Shown: positions 23,236 to 31,515 of the stretch, piece after piece
Position numbering within the stretch: position 1 is the stretch's first letter
Layout: every line of letters begins with the position of its first letter
Origin: Bacteroidota bacterium
Lineage (GTDB): Bacteria > Bacteroidota > Bacteroidia > Flavobacteriales_F > PHOS-HE28
Direction: 5' to 3'
DNA: 36,163 bases
Assembly (NCBI GenBank): GCA_023430945.1
Contig: JAEYYE010000391.1
Coordinates: forward strand, 1 to 36,163
Translations under genes and position numbers: made by a program
Notes under the pieces: model-generated
Told to the model about the DNA's origin: nothing
What the model saw: the letters and a program-made list of their open reading frames with translations, nothing else
The model's database searches: none

Positions 23236-25122
23236 TCAACCGGCCTTGCGCATCAATTCCTTGTCCGGCATGAACGAAAGCGTGAGGCTGATGCCGTTGG
23301 TTCGTACCAATTTCAATTCACCGTTCAGCTGTTGGGCAAGCACATCGATCAGTTCGCAGCCAAAGGATCGTTCCCTGCAGAATTCGGATGTGCCGTCCAG
23401 TCCTTTCCCATCGTCGCTGTAGCGTAATTCATACCGATCACCTTCATGCTTGATCGCGATGCGGATGTTCCCGGCGTTCATTCCACCGAAGGCATGCTTG
23501 ATCGAGTTGGTGACGAGTTCGTTGAGCATCAAACTCAATGGCAGCAGGGTTTCCACAGGGAACGGTGGAAGATCGGTATCCACGCCGATCGAGATCCGAT
23601 CGTGAACACCGTGTGCCACCACGATGCTGCGTGCCAGTTTTTCCACGTGCGTGCGCAGTGAAGCGTTCCTGTCGCCAGTGGATCGATAGATGTGCTCGTG
23701 CACCATGGCCATGGATCGGATGCGGCCCTGGGCTTCGCGCAACACGCGCACTGCCGCCGGGTCCTTCACCTGATCACCCTGCATGTTGAGCAGACTGTCC
23801 ACCACTTGCAGATTGTTCTTCACCCGGTGATGGATCTCCTTCAGGATCATCTCCTTTTCTTCTTCGCTCATCAACGATTCGGCCAGCCGCAGGTTCTGCC
23901 TTTTCAGTTCAAGCACCTTGCTTTGGATGTCGGCGTTCTGGCGGCGGATGACTTCGTTCTTACGCGCGAGCCGTTTCATCACCTTCCTGGTGTACCGGCT
24001 TATCACGAAGACCGCGGCCAGGAGGACAAGCACCCCGCCGAGCAGGATGGACAGATAACGGTTGTTGGAGAGTTGATCCTGGATGGTGACCGCCTGCCGT
24101 TCGGTCAATTCGCGCAGTTGTGCATTGTCAAACTCCTTGCGTTTCACGTCATGCAGCACCTGCAGGCCGGCCATCTTCAGGTTCATCCTTGCGGCATACA
24201 GCGAATCGCCATGCGCTTTGGCGTGTTGCAGGTGTTGAAGGGCGAGCTTCCAATCCTCCTGGAGCAGGGCCAGCCTGTATTCGAGGTCGAGCAGTGTGGC
24301 GGTGTGCTGCGCATCGTTGAGCGCCGTGATCTGTTGCTTAGCTTCATCGAGCGATCGTTCTGCGAAATGCGACAGGCCGAGGCCGATCATGGCCTGGCAC
24401 CGATCCACCGAAAGCTGGAACCGATCCGAAGTGCTGCCATCGGATCGAAGGATCTTTTCGGCCTTTGTGAGAAAAGGCAGCGCATCGGCGAACTTTCCAT
24501 TGTCGATCAATATCCGGGCGATCAGTTCGTGCACCTTCGCTTCACACATGGGATCGCTCCCGGCCCGGCATGCGGTGATCGCCTTGGAACTATTGCTGAG
24601 CGCTTCGGTGTGCCGGCCGGCCTCCAGAAGAGTGAACATGAGATGCCTTTCAGCCTCAGCGATCGCGGTGGGATCCTTCAGGGTATAATGGATCTGGAGT
24701 GAGTTCCGTGCTTCGATCACAGCCCGGTCGAACTGGAAGTTGATGCGGTAGGCGATCGACAGATCGCGCAGCAGATCGGCTCTGACAGCGCTGTCGGCAG
24801 CTCCCCTGGCCAGTTCCAATGCCTTCAAGGTGGTGTTCAGGAATGCCTGGTTCATGCCCAGCTTCAATTCAGCAGCTGAGATGCGCATCAGAGCGATCAA
24901 TTCCTGTCGCTGATCACCCTGTTCGATGGCCAGATCGAACGCCTGCTTGGCGTGGCAGAGCGAAGTGAGCGGATCACCTGCCAGATGGAGGTCGGCATTG
25001 GCGATGGCGGTGGAATGATCGCTGGAAAGTCCTGCGCAGCCGGCCGGATCGGCGGCGGAAAGCTGCCCGAAACACCAGGCGAGCAGCAGGGCAGGGAGGG
25101 AACGAAGTGGGTTCGGGCTCAT
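23236..25122 (-). CDS. Sensor histidine kinase with extracytoplasmic TPR-like repeats, one TM helix and a HisKA_2-type H-box plus HATPase domain
   Basis: I place the start at MSPNPLRSLPALLLAWCFGQLSA (signal peptide). About 330 aa of helical repeats follow, then the TM helix YLSILLGGVLVLLAAVFVI and a coiled coil. The H-box is EIHHRVKNNLQVV, the N-box LNELVTNSIKHAF and G1 DDGKGL. Confidence 0.85.
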   Translation of the reverse strand: MSPNPLRSLPALLLAWCFGQLSAADPAGCAGLSSDHSTAIANADLHLAGDPLTSLCHAKQAFDLAIEQGDQRQELIALMRISAAELKLGMNQAFLNTTLKALELARGAADSAVRADLLRDLSIAYRINFQFDRAVIEARNSLQIHYTLKDPTAIAEAERHLMFTLLEAGRHTEALSNSSKAITACRAGSDPMCEAKVHELIARILIDNGKFADALPFLTKAEKILRSDGSTSDRFQLSVDRCQAMIGLGLSHFAERSLDEAKQQITALNDAQHTATLLDLEYRLALLQEDWKLALQHLQHAKAHGDSLYAARMNLKMAGLQVLHDVKRKEFDNAQLRELTERQAVTIQDQLSNNRYLSILLGGVLVLLAAVFVISRYTRKVMKRLARKNEVIRRQNADIQSKVLELKRQNLRLAESLMSEEEKEMILKEIHHRVKNNLQVVDSLLNMQGDQVKDPAAVRVLREAQGRIRSMAMVHEHIYRSTGDRNASLRTHVEKLARSIVVAHGVHDRISIGVDTDLPPFPVETLLPLSLMLNELVTNSIKHAFGGMNAGNIRIAIKHEGDRYELRYSDDGKGLDGTSEFCRERSFGCELIDVLAQQLNGELKLVRTNGISLTLSFMPDKELMRKAG

Positions 25123-25249
25123 GAATGGGCCTTCATACGTGTACCGGTGTATTTGGTTCCATACGTTGGCACGCGAAGCGGAATTGCCCGGCACGCAGCG
25201 GTCCCTTACTTTAGCTGCGGCCGATCGGCCGATCTTGAACAAACGCTGC

Positions 25250-28051
25250 ATGTTCCGACAACTACATCTTCTCCTGTGTGCGATCGTTCTTTCCGGTGCT
25301 TCGTTCATGGCGAACGCACAATGTGTTCCGCCGGAAGTGACCTATTCCTTCACCGGGGATTGCCAGACCGGTGAATTCTACATCGATCTGGACGTTGCAT
25401 CGCTGGGCGATTCGCCGGGCCTCACCATTGAGTATGAACTTTTCGGCTTCACCGAGACCTTCACCGACGTGCAGGTGGGTGTATTGCAGATCGGTCCCTT
25501 CTATGTGGACGAGATCGTGAACATAACCGTGATACATGGTGGCGATCCGGCGTGCGATCTCACGTTCGCTGGTTTGAACCCGGCGGCGGATTGTCCCTTC
25601 TATCTGGCCTGCGGATCACCCCCGATCATTCTCAATTACTGTTACCAGGACGATCAGGTGACGTACTGGATCTTTGAAGGGCTTGGCGATGGATCGCTCG
25701 TGTTGAATTTCCTGAGCGGCCAGATCGGCGCGGGGGATACCTTGATGGTCTACGATGGTGTGGATGCGAACGCACCACTTCTCTACCAGCATCCGGGAGG
25801 CGCACTTGCCGATCTTTCAGGGATCAACCTGATCAGCAGCTCGCCTTACATGTACATCTACTTGAGCTCCAATTCGGCTGGTAGTTGTGCAAGCGGCCTT
25901 ACCGAACTTTCGTGGCAGATCGCCTGCCTGGATTGTGCCTTCCCGAACTATACGGCCACGGTGATCGATGATTGCGCGAACGATCAGTTCAGCATTGAGC
26001 TCGATATCCTTACCACTGGTGATGGAAGCAGCGTTGATATTGAATACAGCGTTGATGGCGGGCCTTTGCAGACCATGAACGTTGGTGTGGGCATGGTGGT
26101 GCTCGGGCCTTATGCGCTTGGCCAGCAGGTGAACATCACGCTCGGTCATGAGATCGAAGCGCTGTGTGACCAGCCGCTGGGCATCTTCACCGATACGGGG
26201 TATTGCCCTACGTTGGTGGAATGCGGGCAACCGGATGTGACACAGAGCTATTGCTATAGTGACAACGATTCACAGTTCTGGGTGTATGAAGTGGTCGGCA
26301 ACCAGGGAGCGTTGTACCTTGAATTCACCGCAGGAATGATCGAGGCCGCGACAGGCGACAGCCTGATCATACGCGACGGCGCCGATGAGAGCGCGCCCAT
26401 CATTTTCGAACATACGGGCGGCACGCTCGATCTTACCGGTCTCTCGGTGATCTCCAACAGCGGATCGCTCTTCGTTTACATGAGCTCCGACTTCGAGAAC
26501 AGCTGCGCCACCACCCCGAATTGGGAATGGCAATGGTACCTCACCTGTCTTGATTGCTTCCCTGCGATCGCCGGATTCCAGTTGATCCAGGATTGTGAGA
26601 ACGCTCAATATTTCATCGATGTGAACCTGAGCAGCCTGGGAAGTGATCCCGAAGTTACGATCACCAACAACTCAAGCGCCCCGGAGGTGAACGTATCCGC
26701 TCCCGGTAACGTGATGGTGGGCCCGTTCCCTACTGGTACGCAGGGACAGGTGACCCTGGTGAATGATCAGAACAACGTATGCAATGTGACCTCGCCGATC
26801 TTCATCGATCCGCTGTGCCCAACGTATGTATGCGGAAGTGAACCCCTTGTGGAAACGTATTGTTATGGCCCCAACGAGAACATGGCCTGGGCATATGCTA
26901 CTGCAGGTACGGGCCAGATCAGGTTGGTCTTCAATATCGGCACGATCGCAAGTTCGTTGAACGATTCCCTGCGCATCTATGATGGCGTGGACGATCAGTC
27001 ACCGCTGTTGTTCGAACACGTGAACGGAGCCACCTCACAGCTTGGTCCTGATGGGTACGGTGTTGATGTAACGGCGTCCGGCCCGAACATCTACATGGAG
27101 CTCACTTCCAACGGTACGGTACAATGTTCGAGCAGCACCACTTTCGATCCCATGGAATGGCAGGTGACCTGTGAATCGTGCGTGCCACCGGGCGTTAACT
27201 ACATCCTTGAACCGGACTGTGAACACCTGAGCTATAACGCCGTTGTGGAAGTGATCACTCCCACCGGGCCGAGTGGTTTCCAGATCGTGGAGACCACCAG
27301 CGGCGAGATCCTGAATGCACCGCAACCCGGTAATTACACCTTCAATGCATCCTTCGATCTTGATTCGGCCGTGACCTTCCTGCTCACCGATCTGGATGCA
27401 GCCGGTTGCATCTATGATAGCGGTCCGCTCGTATTCACTCGCGACAGTTGCATCATCCGCAGTTGTGGCGTGGACAACTACAGTCTCTGTTATGGGAACA
27501 ATGAGGATCGCTGGTACACGTACCAGGCCGACGGCAATGTTCCCATTTCATTGAAATTCCTTGAAGGCCAGATGATGCCGAGCGATGATATCGTAGTGTA
27601 CAACGGCCTTCATGGGAACCCCGGCCAGGCCGTGATGTACCAAGGGAACAATGGCGGGAACCTCACGGGTATCACCATCAATTCCGCGAATCTGCTGAAC
27701 GCGATCACGCTTCGCATACGATCGAACGATGAATGGTCCTGCGAGGATGGATTCGTTACGACACCGCTGCGTTGGGATGTTGGCTGCGGTTATGTAGGGA
27801 TGGATGAATTCGGCCTGTCCGATTTCACCCTGCACCCGAATCCCACGGCCGGCAACATCACCATCGGCGATGTCCGGCAAGGCTCATCGGCACGGATACT
27901 TGATATTAGTGGGAGGGAAGTGCTTTCGTTGCAGCGGATCGGAGCATCCAGCACCACGATCGATGTATCGATGTTGCAGGACGGGCAGTATTTCATGCAG
28001 GTGATCTCCGATCGGGGGATCGGTACAAGATCGTTCCAGTTGATCAGGTGA
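25250..28051 (+). CDS. T9SS-secreted Cys-rich repeat protein, paralogue 1 (4 x [unassigned ~95-aa module + CUB-like ~110-aa module] + Por-type C-terminal sorting domain)
   Basis: I place the start at MFRQLHLLLCAIVLSGASFMANAQ (Met44 of the track ORF). The four-fold alternating repeat is described in the findings. The last ~80 aa (FTLHPNPTAGNITI...DISGREV...LQDGQYFMQV) match the T9SS type A CTD pattern. Confidence 0.85.
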   Translation: MFRQLHLLLCAIVLSGASFMANAQCVPPEVTYSFTGDCQTGEFYIDLDVASLGDSPGLTIEYELFGFTETFTDVQVGVLQIGPFYVDEIVNITVIHGGDPACDLTFAGLNPAADCPFYLACGSPPIILNYCYQDDQVTYWIFEGLGDGSLVLNFLSGQIGAGDTLMVYDGVDANAPLLYQHPGGALADLSGINLISSSPYMYIYLSSNSAGSCASGLTELSWQIACLDCAFPNYTATVIDDCANDQFSIELDILTTGDGSSVDIEYSVDGGPLQTMNVGVGMVVLGPYALGQQVNITLGHEIEALCDQPLGIFTDTGYCPTLVECGQPDVTQSYCYSDNDSQFWVYEVVGNQGALYLEFTAGMIEAATGDSLIIRDGADESAPIIFEHTGGTLDLTGLSVISNSGSLFVYMSSDFENSCATTPNWEWQWYLTCLDCFPAIAGFQLIQDCENAQYFIDVNLSSLGSDPEVTITNNSSAPEVNVSAPGNVMVGPFPTGTQGQVTLVNDQNNVCNVTSPIFIDPLCPTYVCGSEPLVETYCYGPNENMAWAYATAGTGQIRLVFNIGTIASSLNDSLRIYDGVDDQSPLLFEHVNGATSQLGPDGYGVDVTASGPNIYMELTSNGTVQCSSSTTFDPMEWQVTCESCVPPGVNYILEPDCEHLSYNAVVEVITPTGPSGFQIVETTSGEILNAPQPGNYTFNASFDLDSAVTFLLTDLDAAGCIYDSGPLVFTRDSCIIRSCGVDNYSLCYGNNEDRWYTYQADGNVPISLKFLEGQMMPSDDIVVYNGLHGNPGQAVMYQGNNGGNLTGITINSANLLNAITLRIRSNDEWSCEDGFVTTPLRWDVGCGYVGMDEFGLSDFTLHPNPTAGNITIGDVRQGSSARILDISGREVLSLQRIGASSTTIDVSMLQDGQYFMQVISDRGIGTRSFQLIR

Positions 28052-28070
28052 TCGATCCGGTCATCGATCG

Positions 28071-28096
28071 AAAAGCCCGGCCATGGCCGGGCTTTT
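28071..28096. terminator. Rho-independent (bidirectional-type) terminator
   Basis: Perfect palindrome AAAAGCCCGGCCATGGCCGGGCTTTT, 20 nt after the stop of paralogue 1. Confidence 0.8.
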
Positions 28097-28205
28097 CGAT
28101 CTTCCGTGGGATCGTTCGGATCGTGTTGATTACGTGTGGTGATCGCTGGATAACGAGGCGAGCGACAAATTACATTAGCTGCCACTTACACCAAACCCCT
28201 TCTGC

Positions 28206-31200
28206 ATGTTCCGGAGCTTACGCTATCTGCTTTGTACCATCCTTGCCATCGGCCTGTTCACGGCCGTTGATGCACAGGATGGCTGCGTCAACACCGCCCA
28301 ATATCCTGGCATCGAGATCACACCCGATCCATCAGGTGCGGTAACACCAGTATCAACCTGCATCTTTCTGCAGGAATTCACCCACTATACGGGGATCGTG
28401 AGTGGAAGCACCTACAAATTCACGATCAACGGTAATGGATACATCACCCTTCGATCCGGCACGAGCGATGGCCCGGTGGTGATGTCGGGTTACGATTACC
28501 TGATCTACACCGCAGCGTCGAACGATGATCTGTTCGCCCATTACACGGTCGATGAGAATTGCGCCACTGCCACCAATTGCCAGGAGAACACCGTGCAATT
28601 GATGCTCAACTGCATTCCGCCGATGGTGGGTTACGAATGGATCGAGGATTGCAGCACCGGCGAATTTACGGTGCAATTGGACTTCATCGATCTGGGCGAT
28701 TCTCCTGGGCTTACCGTTGAATACACGATCGATGGCACCGCCGGAACGATCTCTTCCGTGAATGTTGGGACCGTGGACATCGGGCCTGTAGTTCTTGGCC
28801 AGACCGTGGACATCAGCATCGTGTACGGCGGTCAACCGGATTGCGACATCGTCTTCAGCGACCTGCAGCCTTTTTCGGGTTGTCCGTTCGAGCTTACGTG
28901 TGGTGCTCCGGCAACGAACATGAGCTACTGCTACAACGGTGGTGACAACGTCTCCTGGTACTTCCAGGGCCAGGGCACGGGATGCATCCGGCTGGACTTC
29001 GTGAGCGGCATGATCGGTGGTGGTGACTTCATCACCATCTACGACGGTCCTGACAATTCCTATCCGATCCTTTTCGAACAGTTGATCTGGGCCGACCTGG
29101 ATCTCGCTGGAACAACGATCGTTTCCTCCGGACCGGAGATGTTCATGACACTTGTGGCCGATGCCTTCAGCAGCTGCAGCGACAGCATCTATGCACCGAT
29201 CGAATGGAACGTTGCATGCCTTGATTGCACATTGCCGCAGGCGGAAGTGACGATCGTGGAGGATTGCCCCAACAACCAGTACACCATCCAGGTGAACGTT
29301 ACGTCCGCAGGCGATGGTAACACGGTCGATATTGAATACGCCGTGAACGGTGGGACGCCGCAGACCGTAACCGGCGCTGCGGTGGGGCAGACCGATATCG
29401 GGCCGTTCACGATCAATGATCAGGTAGCGATCACATTGCAGCATGAGAATGATGGCATGTGCGATGTTTCGCTGGGCACCTTTACGGATAGTGGCGCATG
29501 TCCCACGATCGTTACCTGCGGCGCACCCGATGTATTGGAGACCTATTGTTATGGGAACGGTGATTCACAATTCTGGTTCTACCAATTGGAAGGCATCGGC
29601 GGATCACTTTTCCTCACCTTCACAAGCGGCACCATCGAATCGAACTTCTTCGACAACCTTGCGATCCATGATGGCTTCGACGGAACTGCACCGATCATCT
29701 GGCAGCATACATCGGAAGAAATGTTCGACCTTACCGGTGTAGCCGTTACATCCACTTCCGGGTCATTGTTCATGACGATGTCATCTGATGGCAGTTCAAG
29801 CTGTGATGATCAATCCCAGACCGAATGGAACTGGACCTTGACCTGCCTGGATTGCTCACCTGCCATCGCGAGCTACAACATCGTGCAGGATTGCGCCAAC
29901 TTCCAATATTTCGTTGATGTCGTTGTGACTGAAATGGGAAGCGATCCCGAGATCACCGTGACCAATGATGGTGGTGCCGCGGAGGCCACGATCTCCGCAC
30001 CTGGAACCGTGCAGGTAGGCCCATTCGTTTCAGGCACTCCCGTACAGATCACATTGGTGAACGATTCGAACGCCCTTTGCAATGCTGTTTCGGACATCAT
30101 GGTGAATCCGCTGTGCCCTCAGATCATTTGCGGCACCACGCCATTCCAGGAAACGTATTGCTACGATGCGAACGAGAACATGGCCTGGGCCTATGAGGTT
30201 TCGGGCAATGGCAACGTACACCTTGTGTTCGACATCGGTACGATCGAATCCGATACATGGGATGACCTTACGATCTACGATGGTCCGGATGCGCAATCGC
30301 CCATCCTGTTCCAGCACATTGGTGGCACATCGGAGCTTGGCCCCGATGGCAGCGCCGTGAATGGTGACGGTTTCGTTTACTATGGCGTGGATGTGACCTC
30401 CACCGGCCAGAACCTGTACATGACGCTCACCTCTGATGGATCGGTGCAGTGCACCAGCATGACCAATTTCGATGCATGGGAATGGAATGTGAGCTGCGAA
30501 GGTTGCGATGCCCCAGGTGTTTCCTATACCCTGGAAGCGGATTGCGAACATCTGCTCTACAAAGTGGCTGTGAACGTAACTGAATTGACCGGTCCGCTGG
30601 GTCTGCAGATCACGGAGATGAGCACCGGCGAAACGGTTACAGCAACATCACCGAACACTTTCCTCTTCAACACCATTTTCGGGCTGGACAGCATTTCCAA
30701 CTTCGAAGTGGTGGATTTTGATAATGAAGGCTGTACTTATGAAAGCGGTCCGATGGTCTTTACGCGTGATAGTTGCGTGATCAACAGCTGCGGCCTGGAC
30801 AATTACGAAGTGTGCTACGAGAACAACGAGGATCGCTGGTACACGTACCGATCGGTCGGGAACGTTCCGGTGGCCATCTTCTTCTATGAAGGCCAGATGC
30901 TGAGCAATGACATGGTGACGCTTTACAACGGTCTTGTGGATGCACCCGGCAACATCATATTCTCCGGCAACAACAGCGGCAACCTCACGGGCCTCACGGT
31001 GAATTCGAACAACACGGATAATGCGCTTACCCTGCGGATCCGTTCCAACGACAGCGGTTCCTGCTCCGATGGATCGGCCACGGTGCCGTTGCGTTGGGAT
31101 GTGGGTTGTGGCTTCGTAGGGATCGATGAGGTCGCGCGAACCGGTTTCTCGATCTTCCCCAACCCATCCACCGGCATGTTGAACATCGATCTGGGTTCAG

Positions 31201-31385
31201 TGATGGAAGGAGAGATGAACATCCGTGTGACCGACATGAGCGGCCGGATCGCTGCAGAACGCACGGTGCTCGGTTCGTTCGATCGCACCTCGCTCGATCT
31301 GGGCCAGTTGCAGAACGGCCAGTACATGGTCACGATCGTAACAGAGAACTGGACGGCCACCAAGCTATTGCAATTGATGCGCTGA
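28206..31385 (+). CDS. T9SS-secreted Cys-rich repeat protein, paralogue 2 (extra N-terminal domain + the same 4 x two-module array + CTD)
   Basis: Signal peptide MFRSLRYLLCTILAIGLFTAVDAQ. It is module-by-module collinear with paralogue 1. The CTD is FSIFPNPSTGMLNI...DMSGRI...LQNGQYMVTI. Confidence 0.88.
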   Translation: MFRSLRYLLCTILAIGLFTAVDAQDGCVNTAQYPGIEITPDPSGAVTPVSTCIFLQEFTHYTGIVSGSTYKFTINGNGYITLRSGTSDGPVVMSGYDYLIYTAASNDDLFAHYTVDENCATATNCQENTVQLMLNCIPPMVGYEWIEDCSTGEFTVQLDFIDLGDSPGLTVEYTIDGTAGTISSVNVGTVDIGPVVLGQTVDISIVYGGQPDCDIVFSDLQPFSGCPFELTCGAPATNMSYCYNGGDNVSWYFQGQGTGCIRLDFVSGMIGGGDFITIYDGPDNSYPILFEQLIWADLDLAGTTIVSSGPEMFMTLVADAFSSCSDSIYAPIEWNVACLDCTLPQAEVTIVEDCPNNQYTIQVNVTSAGDGNTVDIEYAVNGGTPQTVTGAAVGQTDIGPFTINDQVAITLQHENDGMCDVSLGTFTDSGACPTIVTCGAPDVLETYCYGNGDSQFWFYQLEGIGGSLFLTFTSGTIESNFFDNLAIHDGFDGTAPIIWQHTSEEMFDLTGVAVTSTSGSLFMTMSSDGSSSCDDQSQTEWNWTLTCLDCSPAIASYNIVQDCANFQYFVDVVVTEMGSDPEITVTNDGGAAEATISAPGTVQVGPFVSGTPVQITLVNDSNALCNAVSDIMVNPLCPQIICGTTPFQETYCYDANENMAWAYEVSGNGNVHLVFDIGTIESDTWDDLTIYDGPDAQSPILFQHIGGTSELGPDGSAVNGDGFVYYGVDVTSTGQNLYMTLTSDGSVQCTSMTNFDAWEWNVSCEGCDAPGVSYTLEADCEHLLYKVAVNVTELTGPLGLQITEMSTGETVTATSPNTFLFNTIFGLDSISNFEVVDFDNEGCTYESGPMVFTRDSCVINSCGLDNYEVCYENNEDRWYTYRSVGNVPVAIFFYEGQMLSNDMVTLYNGLVDAPGNIIFSGNNSGNLTGLTVNSNNTDNALTLRIRSNDSGSCSDGSATVPLRWDVGCGFVGIDEVARTGFSIFPNPSTGMLNIDLGSVMEGEMNIRVTDMSGRIAAERTVLGSFDRTSLDLGQLQNGQYMVTIVTENWTATKLLQLMR

Positions 31386-31403: not shown

Positions 31404-31431
31404 AAAAGCCCGGCGCCAGCCGGGCTTTTTT
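31404..31431 (+). terminator. Rho-independent terminator
   Basis: AAAAGCCCGGC-GCCA-GCCGGGCTTTTTT, 19 nt after the stop of paralogue 2. Confidence 0.8.
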
Positions 31432-31485: not shown

Positions 31486-31515
31486 AGAAGCCCCGCCGGA
31501 TCCGGCGGGGCTTCT
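31486..31515 (-). terminator. Hairpin terminator for the GAPDH gene
   Basis: Perfect 30-bp palindrome AGAAGCCCCGCCGGATCCGGCGGGGCTTCT. It lies 22 nt beyond the minus-strand stop at 31537 and is followed on that strand by TTGTTCT. Confidence 0.65.

What the first reader, a model, noticed from the sequence alone, without database searches (positions are those of the whole stretch)
25250..31385. Tandem paralogous T9SS cargo proteins built from four alternating copies of an unassigned Cys-bounded module and a CUB-like module
Both proteins have a Sec signal peptide and a Por-type C-terminal sorting domain. Between these, each has four A-B units of about 200-210 aa. Module A is about 95 aa with the pattern C-x-P-x(6-8)-DC-x(3)-F/Y-x-I/V-x-L/V-D/N...LGD/GDG...T/D-I/V-E-Y...GP...V-x-I-T/S-L...C-D/N...CP. 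I cannot assign it to a known domain. Module B is about 110 aa with the pattern CG-x(6-8)-YCY-x-N/D...L-x-F-x-x-G-x-I-E...D-x-L-x-I-Y/H-DG-x-D...P-I/L-L/I-F/W...S-S-G-x-x-L/M-F/Y-M-x-L/M-x-S-D/N...C...W-x-W/V-x-C. This reproduces the hallmark CUB spacing (L-x-F..F-x-x-E..D-x-L-x-I-x-DG...S-x-x-N-x-L-x-V-x-F-x-SD). Module i of paralogue 1 is most similar to module i of paralogue 2. For unit 3, compare CFPAIAGFQLIQDCENAQYFIDVNLSSLGSDPEVTITN with CSPAIASYNIVQDCANFQYFVDVVVTEMGSDPEITVTN. For unit 4, compare NNEDRWYTYQADGNVPISL with NNEDRWYTYRSVGNVPVAI. The four-fold internal repeat therefore predates the gene duplication. No catalytic motif is evident. The proteins look like adhesin- or binding-type surface proteins of unknown ligand.
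Basis: partly seen in the sequence, partly recalled or inferred. Interest (0 to 1): 0.6.

Follow-up and report, generated by a model that had tools for sequence, protein, structure and literature searches.

The report
Tandem T9SS proteins of alternating FN3-like/CUB modules
Two neighbouring genes of an uncultured Bacteroidota bacterium encode secreted, cysteine-rich, very acidic surface proteins made of four repeats of a small Ig/FN3-like module with no assigned family plus a divergent CUB domain; they are probably stiff multivalent binding proteins, and they show that CUB domains and an unnamed partner domain are common building blocks of type IX secretion cargo in this lineage.

Summary
P1 (25250-28051, 933 aa) and P2 (28206-31385, 1059 aa) are 50% identical. 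Each has a Sec-type leader, four A-B units and a type-A T9SS sorting domain; PorV, PorU and GldM are present in the genome.

Module B is a divergent CUB domain. Its profile hits cubilin, neuropilin-2 and enteropeptidase CUBs (E 3e-10 to 1e-4). The AF2 model (pLDDT 96) matches single CUB domains at TM about 0.7. The cysteine positions are non-canonical, and the Ca2+/Lys-binding acidic triad is intact in only 3 of the 8 window copies.

Module A has no Pfam, NCBIfam or PDB sequence match. It folds as a 7-strand FN3/Ig-like sandwich; the nearest structures are CBM56 and FN3. Its profile finds 1281 representative proteins, alternating with CUB or GBD_T9SS_assoc domains or in A-only arrays.

Module trees support position-wise orthology, so the internal repeat predates the gene duplication. 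Both genes are under strong purifying selection (dN/dS 0.04-0.05). Full A-B units occur in 125 of 132 genomes of the order and in no sampled genome outside it. The locus PPIase, DEAD helicase, TPR-HisKA_2 kinase, A-B gene(s) is conserved across the genus, with varying gene and unit numbers.

The function as a surface binding protein or adhesin is inferred, not shown.

The parts
25250..28051 (+). Paralogue 1 gene (P0001, 933 aa): leader, A1-B1-A2-B2-A3-B3-A4-B4, type-A T9SS CTD
25250..25321 (+). P1 Sec-type signal peptide (aa 1-24, ...FMANA|QC)
   Evidence: Read from the sequence: n-region Arg, hydrophobic core, A-x-A, Gln at +1. No predictor was run.
25322..25609 (+). P1 module A1 (FN3/Ig-like, 4 Cys)
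25610..25933 (+). P1 module B1 (CUB-like; triad degenerate, G-D-N)
25934..26221 (+). P1 module A2 (modelled; pLDDT 95-96)
26222..26554 (+). P1 module B2 (CUB; modelled; acidic triad E-D-D intact)
26555..26830 (+). P1 module A3
26831..27178 (+). P1 module B3 (CUB-like; triad degenerate, A-D-N)
27179..27463 (+). P1 module A4 (divergent terminal type)
27464..27793 (+). P1 module B4 (terminal CUB type; triad absent, M-D-N)
27833..28048 (+). P1 T9SS type-A C-terminal sorting domain (aa 862-933)
28071..28096 (+). Terminator-like hairpin AGCCCGGCC-AT-GGCCGGGCT followed by TTT, after P1
   Evidence: Read from the sequence. The consensus scan did not list it.
28206..31385 (+). Paralogue 2 gene (P0002, 1059 aa): leader, extra N-terminal domain, four A-B units, CTD
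28275..28610 (+). P2 extra N-terminal 4-Cys domain (aa 24-135), conserved in many relatives, no family match
28611..28898 (+). P2 module A1
28899..29225 (+). P2 module B1 (CUB-like; triad G-D-D, incomplete)
29226..29516 (+). P2 module A2
29517..29852 (+). P2 module B2 (CUB; Y-E-D-D-S signature complete)
29853..30128 (+). P2 module A3
30129..30503 (+). P2 module B3 (CUB; Y-E-D-D-S complete; 10-aa loop insertion relative to P1 B3)
30504..30788 (+). P2 module A4
30789..31115 (+). P2 module B4 (terminal CUB type; triad absent, L-D-N)
31152..31382 (+). P2 T9SS type-A C-terminal sorting domain (aa 983-1059)
31404..31431 (+). Terminator-like hairpin AGCCCGGC-GCCA-GCCGGGCT followed by TTTTTT, after P2; same stem as after P1
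   Evidence: Read from the sequence.
25207..25214 (+). TACTTTAG inside the shared motif TTACWTTAGCTGC, 35 nt before the P1 ATG. It is one mismatch from the Bacteroidota -7 box TAnnTTTG. Promoter role is inferred.
   Evidence: sequence reading
28171..28178 (+). TACATTAG inside the same shared motif, 27 nt before the P2 ATG. Promoter role is inferred.
   Evidence: sequence reading
23236..25122 (-). Divergently transcribed TPR + HisKA_2/HWE sensor histidine kinase. Its adjacency to A-B genes is conserved across the genus.

Best explanation
These are two paralogous cargo proteins of the type IX secretion system. Each is exported by Sec, folded with about 16 disulfides in the periplasm, and passed through the T9SS by its type-A C-terminal domain. 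By analogy with other type-A cargo, PorU most likely then attaches it covalently to the cell surface. The passenger is a stiff rod of eight beta-sandwich domains. FN3/Ig-like A modules act as spacers and alternate with CUB (B) modules. Linkers are 2-5 residues long and flanked by cysteines. The likely working parts are the inner CUB modules that keep the Tyr-Glu-Asp-Asp-Ser signature of Ca2+-binding CUB domains (P1 B2; P2 B2 and B3). In C1s, MASPs and cubilin this site coordinates Ca2+ and clamps a Lys or Arg (or a polar group) of the ligand. I therefore read the proteins as multivalent, Ca2+-dependent surface binding proteins or adhesins for an external ligand, either protein or glycoconjugate. 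The divergent terminal A4-B4 unit lacks the site in 65 of 70 family members and would serve as the cell-proximal stalk. What is shown: architecture, folds, family membership, secretion signals, machinery, purifying selection and phylogenetic history. What is inferred: surface anchoring, Ca2+ binding, ligand binding and rigidity.
For: Secretion: the CTD scores above the curated cut-offs. PorV (464 bits), PorU (1255 bits) and GldM (330 bits) are present in the same genome.

Module B is a CUB domain. Its profile hits cubilin at 3.4e-10, neuropilin-2 at 3.7e-5 and enteropeptidase at 1e-4. The AF2 model of the A2-B2 unit has pLDDT 96.3 and pTM 0.83. The top Foldseek hits are almost all CUB domains, with TM about 0.7 to single CUBs. 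Pfam CUB scores 30.8 bits against a cut-off of 21.4 in homologue P0056.

Ca2+ site: profile columns E40, D44, D88 and S90 align with the Glu, Asp, Asp (and Ser) of cubilin and neuropilin CUBs. The corresponding C1s residues Glu45, Asp53, Asp98 and Ser100 form the Ca2+-dependent Lys-binding site (PMC4222235). The triad is complete in 162 of 301 B modules: 157 of 231 inner copies but only 5 of 70 terminal copies.

Module A is a 7-strand sandwich with pLDDT 95.4; the nearest structures are FN3 domains (TM 0.55-0.63) and CBM56.

Both genes are functional: dN/dS is 0.04 and 0.05 against a close relative. No catalytic family was detected. The 4 + 4 Cys are 99-100% conserved. Module A recurs next to other binding-type jelly rolls (GBD_T9SS_assoc) in T9SS cargo.
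Against: There is no direct evidence of secretion, anchoring, Ca2+ binding or any ligand. Only 3 of the 8 window CUB modules have the full triad, and P1 has one. The window proteins do not reach the Pfam CUB threshold themselves. The cysteine positions differ from canonical CUB domains (alignments), and disulfide connectivity and site geometry could not be inspected because model coordinates are not exposed. Type-A cargo can also be released rather than anchored. The extreme acidity and Lys/Arg depletion are shared with other giant surface proteins of this genome, so they carry no specific information.
Confidence: 0.6

Rival explanations
1. Glycan-capture proteins (functionally like surface glycan-binding proteins). 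The A and/or B modules would act as lectins or CBMs that hold mannose-rich or N-glycan-type glycoconjugates at the surface for neighbouring glycosidases.
For: In 7 of about 16 loci sampled across the genus, the A-B gene(s) sit between CutC-GH2 and GH92-ROK kinase-MFS-glycosylasparaginase genes. The best structural neighbour of module A is the beta-1,3-glucan-binding CBM56 (E 3.9e-3, TM 0.53). Three of 65 A modules give sub-threshold Pfam CBM_56 hits. Module A pairs with galactose-binding-domain-like modules in other cargo proteins. From general knowledge, some CUB proteins (spermadhesins) bind carbohydrates.
Against: The window locus has no glycosidase, SusC/D or transporter next to the genes. 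GH92 and GH2 orthologues were not found in this 76%-complete MAG. The CBM56 similarity is weak, and FN3 domains score equally well. CBM56 ligand residues were not compared because the paper was not retrievable.
Confidence: 0.2
2. A structural surface coat or matrix component without a specific ligand. The acidic, Ca2+-cross-linkable rods would form a protective or biofilm layer.
For: The passenger has pI about 4, with 101-121 Asp+Glu against 10 Lys+Arg. There are many paralogues per genome, and the numbers of units and genes vary.
Against: Strong purifying selection acts on each module, and position-specific module types are conserved across species. The specific ligand-site signature is kept in inner CUBs but lost in terminal ones. 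These points argue for position-specific functions rather than bulk material.
Confidence: 0.12
3. Gliding-motility adhesins of the SprB/RemA kind, propelled along the cell surface.
For: GldM and T9SS genes are present. The proteins are repetitive surface proteins. Distant relatives (P0066-P0068) carry the CHU_C type-B CTD used by SprB-like adhesins.
Against: The window proteins carry a type-A, not a type-B, CTD. There is no SprB-type repeat and no adjacent sprC/sprD/porP-like gene. At about 1000 aa they are far smaller than SprB.
Confidence: 0.05

Closest known systems
CUB domain (Pfam PF00431; Ca2+-binding CUB subset as in C1s, MASPs, cubilin, neuropilin, PCPE-1)
   Same: Module B shares the roughly 110-aa jelly-roll fold (TM about 0.7). 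It shows profile-level sequence homology. The motif order L-x-F, I-E, D-x-L-x-I-x-DG, S-D-x-S is the same. The Tyr/Glu/Asp/Asp/Ser Ca2+-site signature is present in about half of the family's copies.
   Different: It is bacterial T9SS cargo rather than a metazoan extracellular protein. The canonical Cys of the C-x-W and C-x-D/CG positions are absent; instead there are Cys at profile positions 1, 11, 93 and 108. The window copies are too divergent for the Pfam CUB model. B alternates strictly with a partner domain (A), not with the EGF, LDLa or Sushi domains seen in animals.
Fibronectin type III / Ig-like bacterial spacer domains (fn3, Big, PKD) in surface proteins
   Same: Module A is a 7-strand beta sandwich of about 95 aa. 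It is used in tandem arrays and between functional domains of T9SS cargo.
   Different: There is no sequence match to fn3 or any Pfam, NCBIfam or PDB entry. It has four invariant Cys (two predicted disulfides) and a conserved G-x(4)-G-P-F/Y motif. It forms its own family of at least 1281 representative clusters.
CBM56 (beta-1,3-glucan-binding module; PDB 5T7A, 6A6C)
   Same: It is the best Foldseek hit for module A (E 3.9e-3, TM 0.53), and three A copies give weak Pfam CBM_56 hits.
   Different: The similarity is below significance in both searches. FN3 domains superpose better by TM. No evidence on sugar-binding residues was obtained.
T9SS type-A cargo proteins with modular passengers (for example proteins with GBD_T9SS_assoc, GEVED or PKD repeats)
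   Same: They share an N-terminal leader, a multi-domain beta-sandwich passenger and a Por_Secre_tail CTD. Module A occurs in such proteins next to GBD_T9SS_assoc and GEVED.
   Different: Here the passenger is a regular (A-CUB)n array. As a full unit this array was found in 125 of 132 genomes of one order and in none of about 195 other genomes of the class.

Membership tests
CUB domain superfamily (module B) | About 110-residue jelly-roll beta sandwich superposable on solved CUB domains | tested here: met
   The AF2 model of the unit has pLDDT 96.3. The top Foldseek PDB hits are PCPE-1, neuropilin, cubilin, TSG-6 and spermadhesin CUBs, with E 8e-6 to 1e-4 and TM 0.68-0.70 to single domains.
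CUB domain superfamily (module B) | Significant sequence-profile similarity to CUB domains | tested here: met
   The profile of 45 B modules hits cubilin at 3.4e-10, neuropilin-2 at 3.7e-5 and enteropeptidase at 1e-4. Pfam CUB scores 30.8 bits against a cut-off of 21.4 in homologue P0056.
CUB domain superfamily (module B) | The window proteins themselves pass the Pfam PF00431 gathering threshold | tested here: not met
   P0001 and P0002 give no CUB hit at E <= 1. Only 4 of 45 single B modules give weak CUB hits. B is therefore a divergent branch that only a profile or the fold detects.
CUB domain superfamily (module B) | Canonical four Cys (C1-C2, C3-C4) at the usual positions; typical of CUB domains but not universal | tested here: not met
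   In the HMMER alignments the canonical Cys of cubilin and neuropilin face non-Cys columns. The Cys of B lie at profile positions 1, 11, 93 and 108, outside the aligned core. Connectivity could not be read because no coordinates are exposed.
Ca2+-binding CUB subset | Tyr / Glu / Asp / Asp / Ser signature (C1s Tyr17, Glu45, Asp53, Asp98, Ser100) | tested here: met
   The signature is met in P1 B2 (Y-E-D-D-E), P2 B2 and P2 B3 (Y-E-D-D-S) and not met in the other five window copies. Family-wide it is complete in 162 of 301 copies. Residue roles come from PMC4222235. Actual Ca2+ binding was not tested.
T9SS type-A cargo | C-terminal sorting domain TIGR04183 / PF18962 above the curated cut-off | tested here: met
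   PF18962 scores 37 and 43.1 bits (cut-off 27). TIGR04183 scores 31.8 and 29 bits (cut-off 23).
T9SS type-A cargo | N-terminal Sec signal peptide | tested here: met
   By inspection only: MFRQLHLLLCAIVLSGASFMANA|Q and MFRSLRYLLCTILAIGLFTAVDA|Q. No signal-peptide predictor was available.
T9SS type-A cargo | T9SS machinery encoded in the same genome | tested here: met
   PorV 464.5 bits (cut-off 250), PorU 1255 bits (cut-off 420) and GldM 330.4 bits (cut-off 180).
T9SS type-A cargo | Secretion and surface attachment dependent on the T9SS | not testable with these tools
   This needs proteomics or mutants. The organism is known only as a MAG.
Fibronectin type III (module A) | Seven-strand beta sandwich of FN3 topology | tested here: met
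   The AF2 model has pLDDT 95.4 and 7 strands. TM is 0.55-0.63 to many FN3 domains, but no hit reaches E <= 1e-3.
Fibronectin type III (module A) | Match to Pfam fn3 (PF00041) or a related sequence family | tested here: not met
   No family match in 65 A modules and none in PDB sequences (best E 0.13). A is treated as a separate, unnamed family.
CBM56 (module A) | Sequence or fold match together with conserved glucan-binding residues | tested here: inconclusive
   It is the top Foldseek hit but weak (E 3.9e-3, TM 0.53). Pfam CBM_56 is sub-threshold in 3 of 65 copies. Binding residues were not compared.

The most novel reading that the evidence does not exclude
The conserved pairing of a fast-evolving TPR-HisKA_2 sensor kinase with the (A-CUB)n genes may reflect a functional unit. 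Lineage-specific surface CUB rods would capture an external ligand through Ca2+-dependent Lys/Arg or glycan recognition. Occupancy, or the released ligand, would be sensed by the kinase's extracytoplasmic TPR domain. That would make a T9SS-displayed receptor-kinase system built on a bacterial radiation of the CUB recognition module, until now known functionally only from animals.
Probability: 0.1. Interest if true: 0.75.

Novelty: new variant of a known kind. Interest (0 to 1): 0.45.

Why it matters
CUB domains are known functionally almost only from animal extracellular proteins (complement, cubilin, neuropilins). Here a large bacterial radiation keeps the Ca2+/Lys-binding signature in a position-specific way inside T9SS cargo. 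That offers a tractable bacterial model for CUB recognition.

Module A is a well-folding, disulfide-bonded domain found in at least 1281 representative protein clusters and has no family model, so it is a concrete candidate for a new Pfam/InterPro entry. Annotating it would resolve hundreds of 'hypothetical' T9SS proteins.

The locus is conserved in position next to a sensor kinase, yet variable in gene number (1-3) and unit number (2-6.5). That makes it a useful marker of surface-protein evolution in this uncultured order.

Tried and rejected
- Chance or low-complexity repeat: rejected. Module boundaries and Cys are conserved, 70 homologues were found, and dN/dS is 0.04-0.05.
- Catalytic function: no Pfam or NCBIfam enzyme family was found. 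The NF038113 (M36 peptidase) hits cover only the CTD part of that model.
- The vRNAP_dom, TraT, CHB_HEX_C_1 and CBM_56 hits on the whole proteins are sub-threshold and short; I treat them as noise, apart from the CBM56 lead.
- The N-terminal domain of P2 as a degenerate CUB: hhalign probability is 6%, with no PDB or Pfam match. Unresolved.
- Disulfide connectivity from co-loss of Cys: uninformative, because all Cys are near-invariant.
- Literature on CUB with T9SS or Bacteroidetes: nothing relevant found. The CBM56 paper and the MAG source paper were not retrievable.
- The search for related loci with the unit alignment failed for lack of a conserved stretch. With P0002 it gave one near-identical MAG contig.
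- The sigma-70 promoter scan is not informative for Bacteroidota, and no exact TAnnTTTG lies upstream of either gene.
- Lys/Arg depletion as a special feature: rejected, because other giant surface proteins of the genome share it.

Full report
**1. What is in the sequence**

Two same-strand ORFs fill the region. P1 runs from 25250 to 28051 (933 aa). The mechanical ORF starts at 25121, but the Met followed by a leader is at 25250. P2 runs from 28206 to 31385 (1059 aa). The two proteins are 50% identical over 927 residues, and BLASTP also finds off-register self-similarity of about 30% that reveals the internal repeat.

Both begin with a Sec-type leader ending A-x-A|Q (read from the sequence) and end with a type-A T9SS sorting domain. 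PF18962 scores 37 and 43 bits against a cut-off of 27, and TIGR04183 scores 31.8 and 29 bits against 23. The same MAG (2.97 Mb, 408 contigs, 76% complete) encodes PorV, PorU and GldM above their curated cut-offs.

Between leader and CTD each protein has four A-B units. Each A (92-97 aa) and each B (108-125 aa) has four Cys. Linkers are minimal: C-P-x4-C-G between A and B, and C-x-x-C between B and the next A. P2 has an extra 112-aa, 4-Cys N-terminal domain (aa 24-135). Many relatives share this domain, but it matches no family, no PDB sequence and not the B profile.

Each gene is followed by a hairpin with the same AGCCCGG...CCGGGCT stem and a T run. Each is preceded by the shared motif TTACWTTAGCTGC, one mismatch from the Bacteroidota -7 box. 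The duplication therefore seems to have copied a whole transcription unit; this is an inference.

**2. Module B is a divergent CUB domain**

A profile of 45 diverse B modules hits the CUB domains of cubilin (E 3.4e-10), neuropilin-2 (3.7e-5) and enteropeptidase (1e-4) in the PDB sequence set. AlphaFold2 on the A2-B2 unit of P1, with 46 aligned units, gives pLDDT 96.3 and pTM 0.83. Foldseek against the PDB returns almost only CUB domains at the top: PCPE-1, neuropilin, cubilin, TSG-6, spermadhesins, MASP and C1r/C1s. TM to single CUB domains is 0.68-0.70.

The window proteins do not reach the Pfam CUB threshold, but homologue P0056 does, at 30.8 bits against 21.4.

The cysteine pattern is not the canonical one. 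The canonical Cys columns of cubilin and neuropilin face non-Cys residues, and the Cys of B lie at profile positions 1, 11, 93 and 108.

Columns E40, D44, D88 and S90 of the B profile align with the acidic triad and Ser of Ca2+-binding CUB domains. In C1s these are Glu45, Asp53, Asp98 and Ser100, which form the Ca2+-dependent lysine-binding site (PMC4222235). The triad is complete in 162 of 301 family copies, and the split is strongly position-dependent: 157 of 231 inner copies against 5 of 70 terminal copies. In the window it is complete in P1 B2, P2 B2 and P2 B3.

**3. Module A is an unnamed FN3/Ig-like domain family**

None of the 65 diverse A modules matches a Pfam family, and the A profile finds nothing in PDB sequences (best E 0.13). 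The AF2 model (pLDDT 95.4) is a 7-strand sandwich. Foldseek finds no hit at E <= 1e-3. The nearest structures are CBM56 (E 3.9e-3, TM 0.53) and many FN3 domains (TM 0.55-0.63).

Searched against 1.84 billion representative proteins, the A profile finds 1281 proteins at E <= 1e-3 and 801 at E <= 1e-10. Among the best 144, the arrangements are of three kinds. Some are strict (AB)n or (BA)n arrays. Some are A-only arrays; in the largest proteins HMMER reports up to 46 matched stretches. In others, A alternates with a different jelly roll, identified by Pfam as GBD_T9SS_assoc. These proteins often also carry GEVED or fn3 domains, and all eight that were scanned have a Por_Secre_tail CTD.

Module A is thus a general spacer or partner domain of T9SS cargo that still lacks a family model.

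**4. History**

By raw identity, same-position modules are closest for every A and for B2-B4. B1 is ambiguous: 38% between the two B1 copies against 43% between P1_B1 and P1_B2. A tree of the eight window units alone resolves only units 3 and 4.

A tree of 100 units from 23 proteins resolves position-specific clades: u1 99*, u2 97*, u3 91, u4 100*. In a B-only tree the clades are B1 88/89, B2 98/95*, B3 100/98* and B4 100/100*, and the AU test does not reject a B1 clade (p 0.40).

The duplication itself is old. P1 groups with P0004, P0009 and P0012, and P2 groups with P0005, all from other assemblies. The terminal unit type is shared by the whole family. Longer proteins (5-6 units) arose by duplicating inner units.

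Against a close relative (L012; both proteins about 96-99% identical), dN/dS is 0.04 for P1 and 0.05 for P2, and it is low in every module.

**5. Distribution and context**

Full A-B units occur in 125 of 132 genomes of the window's order, which holds one family and two genera in the collection. They occur in none of about 195 other genomes sampled from the class. There, only half-unit matches (A alone or CUB alone) appear, in 14 genomes.

The window's own genome has three more proteins with an A-B-A cassette inside much larger multi-domain surface proteins (one ORF of 3635 aa). It also has a CUB-first T9SS protein.

In 12 of 15 loci fetched from other genomes of the genus, and in four further loci (L012, L016, L017, L018), the order PPIase, DEAD-box helicase, HisKA_2 kinase, A-B gene(s) is kept. 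L016 and L017 hold only the kinase-A-B part, and L018 is the same contig as fetched locus L028. The number of A-B genes (1-3) and of units (2-6.5) varies between these loci. The kinase is only 24-45% identical while the helicase next to it is 75-83% identical.

In about half of these loci the A-B genes lie between CutC-GH2 and GH92-ROK-MFS-glycosylasparaginase genes. The window locus lacks these genes and is followed by a GAPDH-family gene and a sigma-70 factor.

**6. How it most likely works**

Shown: the proteins are T9SS type-A cargo, and their passengers are regular arrays of an FN3-like module and a CUB module. They carry no enzyme domain, they are under purifying selection, and their module types are position-specific.

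Inferred:
- After Sec export and disulfide formation, the T9SS translocates them and PorU attaches them to the surface.
- The short cysteine-flanked linkers, and the confident inter-domain prediction (pTM 0.83), suggest a stiff rod.
- The inner CUB modules with an intact triad bind Ca2+ and, through it, a basic or polar group of an external ligand.
- The terminal triad-less unit is a stalk.

My confidence in the architecture and family assignments is about 0.9. My confidence in the binding-protein or adhesin reading is about 0.6. The ligand class is open between protein and glycan; the GH92/GH2 neighbourhood in relatives and the CBM56-like fold of A keep a glycan-capture role alive (about 0.2).

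**7. Comparison and novelty**

Bacterial proteins with CUB hits already exist in databases: a precomputed PF00431 hit on P0056 and hits of the CUB_M02D8_5 models on distant relatives. I found no paper linking CUB domains with the T9SS or with Bacteroidota proteins.

The finding is therefore a new variant of known kinds: a divergent bacterial CUB branch with its own disulfide pattern, strictly alternating with an unnamed FN3-like domain, in lineage-restricted T9SS cargo. It is not a new fold or a new system. Interest is moderate.

**8. Limits**

Model coordinates are not exposed, so disulfide pairing and Ca2+-site geometry remain unverified. The signal peptide was judged by eye. The organism is an uncultured MAG; its nearest named record is 'Bacteroidetes bacterium isolate OH_CBrB_290'.

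Noticed in passing
window 23236-25122 (-) and loci L012, L016-L018, L022-L024, L026-L028, L030, L032, L033: The divergent TPR + HisKA_2/HWE sensor kinase stays next to the A-B gene(s) across the genus. It is only 24-45% identical between genomes, while the adjacent DEAD-box helicase is 75-83% identical. No response regulator lies in the locus.
   Followed up: partly
L016, L018/L028, L019, L024, L025, L026, L030: In about half of the sampled genomes the A-B genes are embedded between CutC-GH2 and GH92-ROK kinase-MFS-glycosylasparaginase genes, an N-glycan or mannoside-utilisation-like set. The window lacks these neighbours, and GH92 and GH2 were not found in this incomplete MAG.
   Followed up: partly
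L021 (G012:C1:1812001-1832000) and L029 (G016:C3:1329001-1349000): A second subfamily occurs here. Five and seven tandem genes, mostly of about 900 aa, each carry a B-A-B-A (two only B-A) cassette. This indicates massive local paralogue expansion.
   Followed up: no
own genome contigs C402 (ORF of 3635 aa), C396, C71, C18: An A-B-A cassette is inserted in giant multi-domain surface proteins, with GEVED-like sequence motifs (seen by eye; Pfam not run on them), and C402 also with repeated Ig-like segments. C18 encodes a CUB-first protein whose C-terminus resembles a T9SS sorting domain (by eye).
   Followed up: partly
proteins P0073-P0216: Module A forms A-only arrays, with up to 46 HMMER stretches in a 6992-aa protein. 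In other T9SS cargo it alternates with GBD_T9SS_assoc (PF23759). It is an unmodelled domain family of at least 1281 representative clusters.
   Followed up: partly
window 28275-28610 (P2 aa 24-135): The extra N-terminal 4-Cys domain has the consensus C-x-N-x2-Q-x-P...ISTC-x-F-x2-EYS...GYITVR-x-GT-x-DGPVV...DLF-x-H-x-N-x-D-x2-C. It is conserved in most longer family members. A minority carry a different N-terminal domain instead. No family or structure match was found.
   Followed up: partly
window 25322-27793 and 28275-31115 (passenger regions): The passengers are extremely depleted in Lys and Arg (10 K+R in 824 and 947 aa; 1-2 Lys) and have pI about 4. The family median is 1.55% K+R against a genome median of 11.4%. 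Other giant surface proteins of this genome show the same depletion.
   Followed up: yes
window 25207-25219 and 28170-28182; 28071-28096 and 31404-31431: Both paralogues share an upstream TTACWTTAGCTGC motif and a downstream terminator stem AGCCCGG...CCGGGCT. The duplication apparently copied promoter and terminator together with the gene.
   Followed up: partly
window 31487-31512: A further GC-rich hairpin (GAAGCCCCGCCGGATCCGGCGGGGCTTC) lies between the P2 terminator and the convergent GAPDH-family gene. It is probably that gene's terminator.
   Followed up: no
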